Assembly (NCBI GenBank): GCA_045629745.1
Contig: JAZQRU010000042.1
Span: 100,039 to 164,038, forward strand
Length of the DNA stretch: 64,000 nucleotides
Reading direction: 5' to 3'
Origin: Eubacteriales bacterium
Lineage (GTDB): Bacteria; Bacillota; Clostridia; Oscillospirales; CAG-272
Position 1 is the first letter of the stretch, and each line of letters starts with the position of its first letter. Below are positions 5,484 through 13,097 of this stretch, in pieces. The position numbers were made by a program, and so were the translations under genes. The notes below the pieces were generated by a model, which had not been told where the DNA came from, did not search any database, and saw nothing but the letters and a program-made list of their open reading frames with translations.

Positions 5484-8400
5484 ATGAAAACAATGAAAAA
5501 GCTTTGCCTTTGCATTCTTGCTCTCTTGCTTGTTTCCATAACGGTATTCGGTTTTACCGCCTGTGGAAATGAGGAAGCGGAAGAATGCGTACACGAATGG
5601 GGCGAATGGGAAACCGTTACCGAGCCCACTTGTGTTACGGCAGGAAAAGAAAAGAGAGTATGTGCGTTAGACACCGAGGGCGCTCACCCCGAAGAACGCG
5701 AAATCCCGATGCTTGGGCATACTTTCACAACTTACGTCAGCAATAACGACGCAACCTGTACTGCCGACGGAACTAAGTCCTCGGCTTGCGACGTATGCGG
5801 CGAAGTCCAAAAATCTAGTGACTTCGGCTCTATGCTCGCTCACACGTTTGATAAGAAGGTTGCAACCGAGGCTTATTTGAACACGCCCGCCGATTGCGAC
5901 GATAAGGCTACATATTTCTATTCTTGCGAGTGCGGAGAAAAAGGAACTAAGGTATTTGAAGACGGAGATTATCTCCACACTTATGCCGAAGCTTTTTCCT
6001 ATGACGAAAATAAACACTGGCACGCTTGCGTATGCACCGATGCTTCGTGCATCTGCGACAAGCGCACAGGCGAAGCAGAGCACGTATGGGACGATGGCAA
6101 GGTAGCGGCCCAGCCTACCTGCGACACCGAGGGCAACTTCGTTTACACCTGTGCTTGTGGCGCTACGAAAAGCGAGCTTATTCCCTTTAAGCATACGCTT
6201 GCCCGCACTGCAAAGAAAAATGCTACGTGCGAGGCAGACGGTAATATCGAATACTGGCACTGCTCGGACTGCGGCAGATACTTCACCGATGCAGAGGCTA
6301 AGACCGAAATTATCGCGGATGCTATCATAATAAACAAACTCAGTCACGATTTTGCAGGCGGCAATTGGATTTGCACAGAAACCGCGCACTACAAGAAGTG
6401 TGCCGACTGTAATACAACCGACGAAGAGAATGCAAAGGCCCACGATTTCACGCCTATGTCAACGTCACATCAGCATTGGCAGGGATGCGAGTGCGGTTAT
6501 AAGAAAGACGTTCAAGACCATAGCCTAACCTTAAGAATGAATAGTGAAAAACACTGGTTTGAGTGCCTCTGCGGATTCAAGAGTGCAGAACAGGACCACG
6601 AGGAAGCAAGAGATGCAATTCCCAGCTCCTCGAAGGATAACACTTGTTTTGAAGACGGCTATGAAATCCACAAGTGCGCAACCTGTAATCTTGATTTCAC
6701 GAAGATTATTCCTGCGGCTCACTCCGCCCTCAACCACTTTGGCTCGAGCGATGCGACCTGTACCGAAGAGGGCGGCATCGAATACTGGCAGTGCGAGCTT
6801 TGCGATAAGTATTATAAGGATAACGCGGCTACACAGGAAATTCAGCTCAAGGATATTTCCACCGCGCCTCTCGGACACGATTTTGAAAACGGAATACTCA
6901 AGCGCGACGGTGAATACCATTATACCGTTTGTTCAAGAAACGAATGCGGCGTGGTTGATACCGAAAGCAGAGAAGCTCACACCTACGAGTCCGGCTTCAA
7001 TGCAACTCACCACTACGATGCTTGCAGCATTTGCGGATACAAGATAAATGAATCCGAACACGTTTGGGCAAGCTCCACTGTAGAAAGAGAGCCTACCTGT
7101 ACCGTTGAAGGTATCAGAAAGTACACCTGTGAATGCGGAGCTACTAAGGAAGAGGCTATTCCGATTAGACACGAGCTTATTTACGTGGATGCTAAGGCTT
7201 CCACCTGTACCGCAACCGGTAACATAGGCTATTGGTACTGTGCGAAGTGCGAAAAGAACTTCAGCGATTCCTCTGCTCAGAATGAACTGAGTGCAAGTGA
7301 TATAATTACCGATAAGACTCCTCACAACTTTGAAGAGGGCGTTTGGACCTACGATAACGCTAAGCACGCAAAGATTTGTAAGGATTGCGATGCAACGAGC
7401 GAATACAAAAACCACAACTATAATATAAACGGCAAAGATTCTGAAAAGCACTGGAACGAGTGCGAATGCGGATGCAGAATTAACGTTTCCGCCCACGGCC
7501 TCGTTGCAGAGTACATTGATGAAAATACACACTCCATCAGCTGTGTATGCGGATACGGAGTTTCCTCCGCCGAGCACGTTCTTAACGCAGTATACGTAAA
7601 TGATTTTGAGCACAAGCACGCGTGTGTGTGCGGTTATGAAACCGACGTTATGCCGGGCGCGCTCACCGCAGAAGACTATGACGAAAACAGACACGTCTTT
7701 GCTTGCGGCTGCGGTTACTACACCGTAACGGAAAATCACGAGTTATACACCGTTGAGATTGGCATAAGCCACCACCGCCATATCTGCGAATGCGGTTATA
7801 TCTCCGAAATCATTATCGGTGCGGTAACGTACACCCACGACAGCAACGGTCACTTCGGTGAATGCGACTGCGGTTACGACACCGTAGCCGAGAGTCACAA
7901 TTTGACAGTTGGATACACCGACGATACTCAGCACTGGCACGAATGCGAGTGCGGATACGTGACTGAGATAATAAACACCTCCGTAACGATAAAGTACGTT
8001 GACGGACAGTCCTCACTCTACGCGGCGAGCAATACTCTTGGCGGACACTATGCAGAATGCGATTGCGGTTACAGGTCCGAGCTTGATAGCCACACTCTCG
8101 TTGCCGCATACGACGGTGAAAAGCATTACGAAGCTTGCGGCTGCGGCTATATAACGAATGAAGTTAACCATAGCTTCAAGCCCGTTTACGTTTCCGACAG
8201 CGAGCATAAGCACGAGTGCGAGTGCGGCTACGTTTCAGAGACGATTGACGGCGGACTTGGATACAGTCACGACACCATTCAACACTGGGTAGCTTGCGGA
8301 TGTGGCTACACCTTAGAAGCTGAAGACCACACCGTAGAAAGCGGATACAATGAAACCAAGCACTACGAGGGATGCGCTTGCGGTTACATAGAAACCGAGA

Positions 8401-13097: not shown

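What the first reader, a model, noticed from the sequence alone, without database searches (positions are those of the whole stretch)
7440..12130. The array has a higher-order period of three units (~80 aa / 240 bp)
Reading along the array, every third unit is of the type [YF]-V-x-[DSE]-x-x-H-[KYRC]-H-[VA]-C-E-C-G-[YH]. This type has both His upstream, is followed by a hydrophobic I-D/G-x-L-T segment, and has no downstream His. The two units between are of the H-W/F/Y-x-E-C-x-C-G-Y-x6-H type.

Example: HKHVCECGYESAVIDTALTLGYTDENG-HWLECDCGYKADTAAHNVETKTNALE-HFGECACGYKTAKESHGFKAELVSNGE-HKHVCECGY.

A 3-unit super-repeat suggests the folding or functional module is a triplet (~80 aa) rather than a single knuckle. 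This matters for any structural or metal-binding model. Several units are visibly degenerate (HWQKCEHGY, HWRVCEHRY, HWLECIFGC), so not all sites need be functional.
Basis: seen in the sequence. Interest (0 to 1): 0.6.

Follow-up and report, generated by a model that had tools for sequence, protein, structure and literature searches.

The report
Three-unit pattern in zinc-staple stalk protein
A giant gut-bacterial surface protein is built from about 57 tiny zinc-binding units, and in two stretches every third unit is a variant with a relocated histidine; this three-unit pattern is real and conserved in close relatives, but the single unit, not the triplet, is the folding module.

Summary
Observation confirmed, with limits. 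ORF 5484-13097 (2537 aa, lipoprotein-like signal) holds 57 units of 26-27 aa. Fourteen are type A (H-x-H-x-C-x-C, no His at +11) and the rest type B (H-x3-C-x-C-x8-H). Gaps between A units are 2,2,3,3,3,3,9,3,3,3,3,3,3, never matched in 100,000 random placements. The period holds in two blocks (nt 7914-8984 and 9618-11291). It is absent from the first six units, an 8-unit B-only run and the last nine units.

The claim that the triplet is the folding module is not supported:
- More than 250 other proteins carry B-only arrays.
- AlphaFold2 predicts ABB and B-only stretches equally well (pLDDT 88 and 87), with the same three-stranded meander.
- The two B positions do not differ in their cores.

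Type A occurs only in this protein and two syntenic orthologues (66% and 48% identity), where every aligned unit keeps its class. Length differences lie in three-unit steps.

My inference is that zinc staples consecutive units: two His from unit i and the Cys pair of unit i+1. In A units the linker His is replaced by a His two residues along the same strand. This is a lineage-specific variant of the predicted zinc-binding stalk domains of the Thomasclavelia ramosa IgA protease. No metal binding was tested.

The parts
5484..13097 (+). Giant ORF, 2537 aa (P0001). It is 7.6% Cys (192) and 7.4% His (187), and is built almost wholly of small Cys/His modules.
   Evidence: no Pfam or NCBIfam family
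5484..5564 (+). Signal peptide with a lipobox-like end (..VFGFTA-C27). The protein is probably a lipid-anchored surface protein.
   Evidence: read from the translation; inference from the lipobox rule, not tested
5565..7433 (+). N-terminal 'cap' region of longer modules (H-x-[FW]...T-C-x3-G-x5-C-x2-C-G), mixed with a few short units.
   Evidence: [quoted passage not shown]
7434..7913 (+). Start of the array: units at aa 660-794, order B B A B A B. The local period is 2, not 3.
   Evidence: the same order is found in both orthologues
7914..8984 (+). Periodic block 1: A(821) BB A(912) BB A(991) BB A(1072) BB A(1151). The unit at 821 carries a 12-aa insert.
   Evidence: unit classes conserved in L049 and P0002
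8985..9617 (+). B-only run of 8 units (aa 1177-1362).
   Evidence: AlphaFold2 pLDDT 86.7 with three strands per unit; 8 units in L049 and 10 in P0002
9618..11291 (+). Periodic block 2: (ABB) x6, then A, B and an A-like unit (aa 1389-1920). It is present in orthologue L049 and absent from orthologue P0002.
   Evidence: AlphaFold2 model of aa 1344-1590, pLDDT 88.2
9643..9752 (+). Near-identical patch across an A-to-B1 junction. It recurs 240 nt downstream at 9883-9992. The first ~85 nt have 1 mismatch, and the rest of the two triplets is diverged. It looks like an in-register conversion or recombination tract.
   Evidence: (family D14)
11292..11996 (+). Tail of the array: 9 B-type units (aa 1945-2155) with no lag-3 signal. 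It includes HWLECIFGC, which both orthologues also keep in altered form.
11997..13097 (+). C-terminal cap region of mixed long and short modules. The last unit lacks both His (..NYYWTECNCGF..stop).
13230..15290 (+). Short paralogue (686 aa, P0122): a lipoprotein-like protein with the same cap modules and only a few short units.
   Evidence: a 688-aa counterpart lies at the same place in L049

Best explanation
The array is a chain of about 57 autonomous mini-domains of 26-27 aa. Each is a three-stranded up-down-up beta-meander. Neighbours are stapled end to end by one metal site, most likely zinc. Unit i supplies two His: H-4 at the start of strand 2 and H+11 at the exit of strand 3. Unit i+1 supplies the C-x-C pair at its strand 2/3 turn.

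Type A is a variant unit. The exit His (+11) is replaced by Gly, Thr or Ala. A His is gained at -2, giving an H-x-H pair on strand 2, so the A-to-next junction still has two His and two Cys-type ligands but a different geometry. The change comes with loss of the conserved Trp at -3 and a more hydrophobic linker (I-D-G-x-L-T).

The ABB order is a higher-order repeat specific to one small orthologue group. Each unit keeps its class under purifying selection. In the A-containing parts, the array lengthens and shortens in in-register steps of three units (about 240 nt), because A units pair only with A units in recombination. The single unit is the fold. The triplet is the unit of array evolution and marks a different junction every third position.

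The whole protein is most likely a very long lipid-anchored rod or stalk. My rough estimate is well over 100 nm.

Shown here: the pattern, its conservation, its restriction to this lineage, the three-unit indels, and the predicted secondary structure. Inferred: the ligand assignment, zinc as the metal, the rod shape and the function.
For: Pattern and statistics.

The single unit is enough for the fold:
- B-only arrays occur in more than 250 other proteins.
- P0001 itself has a B-only run.
- AlphaFold2 confidence and topology are equal for ABB and B-only.
- B1 and B2 cores do not differ.

Lineage restriction:
- Type A appears only in the window protein, L049 and L011/P0002. All three sit between an acyltransferase gene and the Epimerase_2/glycan locus.
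- None was found among the 143 cluster representatives outside the orthologue group (from a profile search of 1.84 billion representatives with an A-type profile), 37 genome loci or 6 metagenome loci.
- None was found in 60 related genomes.

Conservation: every aligned unit keeps its class at 66% and 48% overall identity.

Three-unit steps:
- The only indels of 13 aa or more between the window protein and L049 are 78 aa and 82 aa.
- Block 2, about 6 triplets, is missing from P0002.
- A conversion-like patch lies at a 240-nt offset.

Staple model:
- DSSP on both models puts H-4 and C0 four residues apart on one strand. That is about 13 A and too far to share a metal. H+11 exits at the end where H-4 lies.
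- Two papers on the IgA protease describe putative 2His+2Cys zinc sites at the interfaces of three-stranded sheets placed end to end (PMC12237041 and PMC12415215).
- Among 143 cluster representatives, array starts carry an extra His or Cys 2-3 residues before the entry His in 44% of cases, against 4% for internal units. Array ends are followed by a Cys pair in 77% of cases, against 36% background, and that pair mostly lacks its own H-4.
- Loss of H+11 and gain of H-2 occur in the same unit.
- Cys+2-to-His swaps occur only in the unit after an A.
Against: - No coordinates were available from the structure tool, so ligand distances were never measured. The staple assignment rests on topology and sequence statistics.
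- AlphaFold2 was run with shallow, hand-cut alignments of 10-14 rows, partly made of paralogous windows of the same protein.
- No metal is modelled and none was measured.
- Only three orthologues exist. Two come from one metagenome sample, so 'three-unit steps' rests on very few events.
- The B-only run differs by two units between orthologues. Single-unit or two-unit changes are therefore possible, and their absence in the ABB parts could be chance.
- Whether the spacing of exactly two B units has any structural consequence is unknown.
Confidence: 0.65

Rival explanations
1. The triplet (about 80 aa) is the true folding or functional module. A, B1 and B2 would be three non-equivalent parts of one domain that cannot fold or act alone.
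For: There is a strong lag-3, 6 and 9 signal inside the two blocks. Unit class is conserved across orthologues. Indels come in three-unit steps.
Against: - B-only arrays are the rule in all other carriers.
- The same protein has an 8-unit B-only run and an AB-AB start.
- B1 and B2 cores are indistinguishable.
- Predicted topology and confidence are the same for ABB and B-only stretches.
Confidence: 0.1
2. The spacing of three is itself selected. The A junction has a different tilt, twist or stiffness, so placing it every third unit gives the rod a defined super-period, such as a twist correction, a regular kink or a periodic binding face.
For: - Type A differs from B in a coordinated set of positions: H-2 gained, H+11 lost, Trp-3 lost, V-Y-V in strand 1, and Ile+9/Gly+11.
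- All of these are kept in orthologues at 48% identity.
- The B2-to-A spacing is always 27 aa.
- AA never occurs.
- The 9-unit gap is a multiple of three.
Against: - Period 2 at the array start and long B-only stretches show the spacing is not obligatory.
- Block 2 is dispensable in P0002.
- No independent lineage has evolved the same pattern.
- No geometry could be measured.
Confidence: 0.2
3. The A-to-B1 junction binds no metal, or binds it with only three ligands. Type A units would then be periodic flexible hinges in an otherwise stapled rod.
For: The linker His is lost and a Gly is common at its place. Two B1 units after an A have lost Cys+2.
Against: - H-2 is invariant in all 14 A units and in all aligned orthologue units.
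- C0 of the following unit is invariant.
- Cys+2 is replaced only by His, which is another metal ligand, and the swap is conserved in L049.
- pLDDT does not dip at these junctions, staying at 88-91.
Confidence: 0.05

Closest known systems
ZBD1/ZBD2 (also named CTD2/CTD4) of the Thomasclavelia ramosa IgA protease (IgAse, UniProt Q9AES2; PDB chain 9qa6_A by sequence)
   Same: There is direct sequence similarity: phmmer E = 3.5e-10 to the cap region, and the protease contains H-W-H-E-C-N-C-G. Both show small three-stranded up-and-down sheets placed end to end. Putative 2His+2Cys zinc sites lie at the interfaces. Both are extended rods on a Gram-positive-type surface protein, proposed to be a new 'periscope' or stalk fold (PMC12237041, PMC12415215).
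   Different: The protease has 2-3 subdomains of 32-56 aa as a spacer behind an enzyme. Here about 57 minimal 26-27-aa units, plus about 25 cap modules, make up the entire protein, and no other domain is detectable. No A-type (H-x-H, no exit His) junction and no higher-order period has been described there. Those domains are themselves only predicted plus SAXS, and no metal-bound structure exists.
B-only H-W-x-E-C-x-C-G-Y-x6-H arrays in surface proteins of gut and rumen Clostridia
   Same: They share the same unit, spacing and invariant ligands. The arrays sit between a membrane or wall anchor and a head domain (LRR, beta-helix, NlpC-like, nuclease-like), which fits a stalk role.
   Different: These arrays are homogeneous, with 4 to about 25 B units, and often have recent near-identical copies. 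They have no A units and no period of three.
SasG/Aap E-G5 repeats of staphylococci (Periscope Proteins; PMC9704523)
   Same: Both are single-chain rods of flat beta-sheet modules without a classical hydrophobic core. Both have a heterotypic higher-order repeat (E alternating with G5) in which length changes occur in whole super-units, and both have a link to zinc.
   Different: There is no sequence or fold relation. SasG repeats are about 128 aa with very high DNA identity and period 2. Zinc acts there between molecules through His/Asp/Glu, not as an intramolecular Cys/His staple. Here the DNA identity between units is about 60-70%.
Classical zinc knuckles, zinc ribbons and C2H2 fingers
   Same: Short Cys/His-rich modules in tandem, each associated with one tetrahedral zinc.
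   Different: The ligand order and spacing differ (H-x3-C-x-C-x8-H). The ligands are inferred to come from two adjacent units. The location is extracellular. There is no Pfam match and no structural match in the PDB (best TM-score 0.2).

Membership tests
IgAse ZBD/CTD2-type zinc-stapled beta-sheet stalk modules | [quoted passage not shown] | tested here: met
   phmmer against PDB sequences: 9qa6_A, E = 1.4e-07 (whole protein) and 3.5e-10 (aa 1-652). The aligned stretch includes HWHECNCG of the protease.
IgAse ZBD/CTD2-type zinc-stapled beta-sheet stalk modules | Three-stranded antiparallel up-and-down sheets arranged end to end | tested here: met
   AlphaFold2 plus DSSP show two to three short strands per 26-27-aa unit, pLDDT 88.2 and 86.7, and pTM about 0.5 as expected for a rod. 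This is a prediction only.
IgAse ZBD/CTD2-type zinc-stapled beta-sheet stalk modules | Tetrahedral 2His+2Cys sites at the interfaces between sheets | tested here: inconclusive
   The ligand count fits: one His pair and one Cys pair per junction. H-4 and C0 lie on one strand, four residues apart. The start and end statistics of arrays also fit. No coordinates were available to measure distances.
IgAse ZBD/CTD2-type zinc-stapled beta-sheet stalk modules | Zinc actually bound | not testable with these tools
   This needs ICP-MS, anomalous scattering or similar. It has not been shown experimentally for the protease domains either (PMC12237041: 'pending experimental validation').
Periscope Proteins (as defined in PMC9704523) | Single-chain protein attached to the cell surface | tested here: met
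   The sequence has a signal peptide with a lipobox-like Cys27. This is sequence inference only.
Periscope Proteins (as defined in PMC9704523) | Tandem repeats with very high identity at the DNA level | tested here: not met
   Tandem Repeats Finder finds nothing. Units are about 60-70% identical in DNA. Only one patch of about 110 nt is near-identical.
Periscope Proteins (as defined in PMC9704523) | Repeat number varies between close relatives | tested here: met
   There are 78-aa and 82-aa indels against L049, and about 6 triplets plus 2 B units differ against P0002. These are different species or strains, not a population series.
Higher-order (three-unit) repeat as a general property of the H-W-x-E-C-x-C-G-Y unit family | The ABB order is seen in independent carriers of the unit | tested here: not met
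   Outside the orthologue group, none of the 143 cluster representatives has ABB. Among the other 119 listed homologues, P0006 and P0073 each show isolated units scored A, but with no three-unit spacing.

The most novel reading that the evidence does not exclude
The protein is a new kind of metal-stapled molecular rod in which two alternative zinc-staple chemistries are deliberately phased. One is a strand-plus-linker His pair; the other is an H-x-H pair on one strand. Under this reading an A junction every third unit sets a defined superhelical or kinked super-period, or a periodic binding face. The result would be a fibre more than 100 nm long that carries about 80 zinc ions per chain and spans the capsule encoded next door. 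That would make the ABB order a structural code rather than a record of duplication history.
Probability: 0.15. Interest if true: 0.7.

Novelty: new variant of a known kind. Interest (0 to 1): 0.45.

Why it matters
The Cys/His mini-sheet modules were first described in 2025, and only as predicted, uncharacterised stalk domains of one IgA protease. This protein is their extreme form: almost nothing but such units, with 192 Cys and 187 His.

The ABB pattern acts as a natural experiment on how the metal staple is built. The coupled loss of the linker His and gain of a strand His, the Cys-to-His swaps confined to the next unit, and the way arrays begin and end all point to staples shared between neighbouring units. 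This gives a concrete ligand model for the whole family that can be tested by mutation.

It also shows a higher-order repeat evolving in a protein array by in-register three-unit steps. For annotation, it warns that the unit boundary (His...Cys-x-Cys...His) is not the boundary of the metal site.

Tried and rejected
- Pfam and NCBIfam scans of the giant protein and its paralogue gave nothing above threshold.
- A Foldseek search of the ABB model against the PDB returned only spurious beta-propeller and designed-repeat hits with TM-score at most 0.2. I rejected them as homologues.
- Tandem Repeats Finder found no DNA repeat.
- I considered a metal site within one unit (H-4, C0, C+2, H+11). I rejected it because H-4 and C0 lie four apart on one predicted strand, and H+11 exits at the far end from the Cys pair.
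- I considered a site made of the previous exit His plus H-4, C0 and C+2 of the same unit. I rejected it for the same distance reason, and because it would leave A units with five ligands and the next unit with three.
- I looked for three distinct unit classes (A, B1, B2). B1 and B2 do not separate in their cores.
- I tried to resolve whether block 2 arose from one triplet. Triplet identities are flat at 30-48%, so this cannot be resolved.
- A single-protein scan found only cap-module relatives without arrays.
- The metagenome scan found no further orthologue.
- The search of 60 related genomes found no copy.
- Structure prediction returns no coordinates, so ligand geometry could not be measured.
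Full report
**What is there**

The region lies inside one open reading frame, 5484-13097 on the + strand (2537 aa, P0001). The protein begins with a signal peptide that ends in a lipobox-like F-T-A-C27. It is 7.6% Cys and 7.4% His. It has no Pfam or NCBIfam family.

I anchored units on the C-x-C motif. This gives 57 units of 26-27 aa between aa 660 and 2155. 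The array is flanked on both sides by longer Cys/His 'cap' modules.

The gene is 49% G+C against about 42% in the flanks. It sits between two acyltransferase genes plus a symporter-like gene and a 19-kb glycan-synthesis locus on the other strand. The genome is small (1.54 Mb, 52 contigs), and this is the only gene in it with the repeat.

**Checking the observation**

I defined type A as His at -4 and -2 from the first Cys with no His at +10 to +13. Type B has His at -4 and at +11. The units then read BBABABABBABBABBABBABBBBBBBBABBABBABBABBABBABBABaBBBBBBBBB.

- The 14 A units are spaced 2,2,3,3,3,3,9,3,3,3,3,3,3. Random placement never reached ten gaps of three in 100,000 trials.
- Unit identity at lag 3 is 0.373, against 0.316 +/- 0.010 for shuffled order.
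- Residue autocorrelation is highest at lag 79.
- Within the two periodic blocks, lags 3, 6 and 9 all stand out, even when the class-defining His columns are dropped. The tail shows none of this.

The period is not a property of the whole array, however. The start has period 2, there is a B-only run of 8 units, and the last 9 units are B only. The two B positions also do not differ in their cores (p = 0.13-0.17). The pattern is therefore one special unit every third position rather than three unit types.

At the DNA level the units are old. They are 60-70% identical and Tandem Repeats Finder is silent. The exception is one patch of about 110 nt across an A-to-B1 junction that recurs 240 nt downstream with one mismatch in its first 85 nt.

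**Relatives**

A search with residues 1360-1925 found 622 proteins (120 listed). A profile of A-to-B1 segments was run against 1.84 billion cluster representatives and found 230. I classified all 266 retrieved sequences.

- The H-W-x-E-C-x-C-G-Y-x6-H unit is widespread in surface proteins of gut and rumen Clostridia.
- It usually forms an array of 4 to about 25 B units between an anchor and a head domain (LRR, beta-helix, NlpC-like, nuclease-like and others).
- A units in the ABB order occur only in the window protein and its orthologues. Two other proteins (P0006, P0073) each show isolated units that my regex scored as A, with no three-unit spacing.
- The orthologues are P0002 on locus L011 (48% identity) and a gene on locus L049 (66% identity). 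The L049 gene is split by a one-base frameshift into the ORFs P0123 and a second one. P0126 matches its C-terminal part.
- Both loci are syntenic with the window.
- Sixty related genomes, 37 genome loci and 6 metagenome loci added no further carrier.

In a three-way alignment every aligned unit keeps its class. All 14 A positions read H-H-C-C-(G/T/S/A) in L049. All seven A units before the B-only run read the same way in P0002.

The only indels of 13 aa or more between the window protein and L049 are 78 aa and 82 aa, each three units. Block 2 (about six triplets) is absent from P0002, while the B-only run has 10 units there instead of 8.

**Structure**

AlphaFold2 on aa 1344-1590 (three ABB triplets, 14-row alignment) gave mean pLDDT 88.2. 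On the B-only run, aa 1159-1376, it gave 86.7. DSSP shows the same unit throughout: strand 1 after the entry His, strand 2 (x-H-W-x-E-C) and a shorter strand 3. This is an up-down-up meander, so the chain leaves each unit at the end opposite its entry.

Foldseek found no solved structure with this fold (TM-score at most 0.2). By sequence the cap region matches the C-terminal zinc-binding domains of the Thomasclavelia ramosa IgA protease (9qa6_A, E = 3.5e-10). Two 2025 papers describe those domains from predictions and SAXS. They report three-stranded sheets placed end to end as an extended rod, with putative 2His+2Cys zinc sites at the interfaces between sheets. The authors regard it as an uncharacterised stalk ('periscope') fold (PMC12237041, PMC12415215).

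**How the metal sites are most likely built (inference)**

H-4 and C0 lie four residues apart on strand 2, about 13 A, so they cannot hold the same ion. H-4 sits at the top of the unit, where strand 3 exits with H+11. C0 and C+2 sit at the bottom, next to the entry His, which is the H+11 of the previous unit. Each junction therefore has two His from unit i and the Cys pair from unit i+1.

Three independent observations fit this model.

- First, among 143 cluster representatives, 44% of array starts carry an extra His or Cys two to three residues before the entry His, for example C-H-D-H-S-Y or H-T-H-S-Y. Only 4% of internal units do.
- Second, 77% of array ends are followed within 25 aa by a Cys pair, against 36% background, and that pair mostly lacks its own H-4. 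The last unit of P0001 itself lacks both His.
- Third, in A units the loss of H+11 and the gain of H-2 occur in the same unit, which keeps the A-to-next junction at two His.

In addition, the only Cys+2-to-His swaps (aa 1017 and 1098, plus 859 in L049) are in the unit directly after an A, and the two in the window protein are conserved in L049. These 'degenerate' units are therefore more likely ligand swaps at a special junction than dead sites.

**Verdict on the interpretation**

The single unit, not the triplet, is the fold. B-only arrays are the norm, B-only and ABB stretches are predicted alike, AB pairs exist, and B1 equals B2.

The triplet is real in two other senses. It marks a different junction chemistry at every third position. 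It is also the step in which the A-containing parts of the array have grown or shrunk. Whether the spacing of two B units is itself selected (rival 2) cannot be decided here.

The function of the whole protein is inferred from its relatives and from the protease papers. It is probably a long, rigid, metal-stapled stalk or fibre on the cell surface. No head domain is recognisable, so the cap modules or the rod itself may be the functional part.

**Limits**

- There were no coordinates, no metal data and no expression data.
- The alignments used for folding were shallow.
- Only three orthologues exist, and two come from one sample.

Noticed in passing
window 13230-15290 (+): A 686-aa lipoprotein-like paralogue (P0122) lies directly downstream. 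It has the same N-terminal cap modules but only a few short units. A 688-aa counterpart sits at the same place in L049. In L011 an Fe-ADH gene lies directly downstream instead and no such paralogue is called.
   Followed up: partly
L049 about 12600-12650: The closest orthologue is split into two ORFs (1229 aa, and a second one called as 1269 aa). A one-base shift lies inside ..HEYKAV|..ALSETEHKHV.. . It could be an assembly error in a repetitive gene or a real pseudogene.
   Followed up: partly
window 9643-9752 and 9883-9992: A near-identical patch sits at a 240-nt offset and is limited to one A-to-B1 junction. The flanks within the same two triplets are diverged and shifted by 3 nt. It looks like a short gene-conversion tract rather than a fresh whole-triplet duplication.
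   Followed up: yes
family-wide (P0124-P0266): Arrays of the unit tend to begin with a two-ligand entry motif ([HC]-x-H-x-[YF]) and to end with an extra Cys pair that lacks its own His. These look like start and stop caps of a chain of shared metal sites.
   Followed up: yes
P0003 aa ~1900-2200; P0053 aa ~2370-2800: Other carriers have their own higher-order repeats made of different unit variants. Examples are longer units with His at +13 alternating with standard ones, or H-W-I-I-C-G-D-C alternating with C-D-V-D-C-D-C-G-Y. They appear to come from recent block duplications.
   Followed up: no
window 5484-13097: The giant gene is richer in G+C (about 49%) than its upstream flank (about 42%), and its coding strand is purine-rich (AT skew about 0.17). 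None of 36 species representatives of the same genus carries the gene, so it may have been acquired horizontally.
   Followed up: partly
window aa 821-859 (nt ~7990-8030): The A unit at aa 821 (H-W-H-E-C-E-C-G-Y) keeps Trp at -3. It is followed by a 12-aa insert (..KYVDGQSSLYAASNTLGG..) that is absent from both orthologues.
   Followed up: partly
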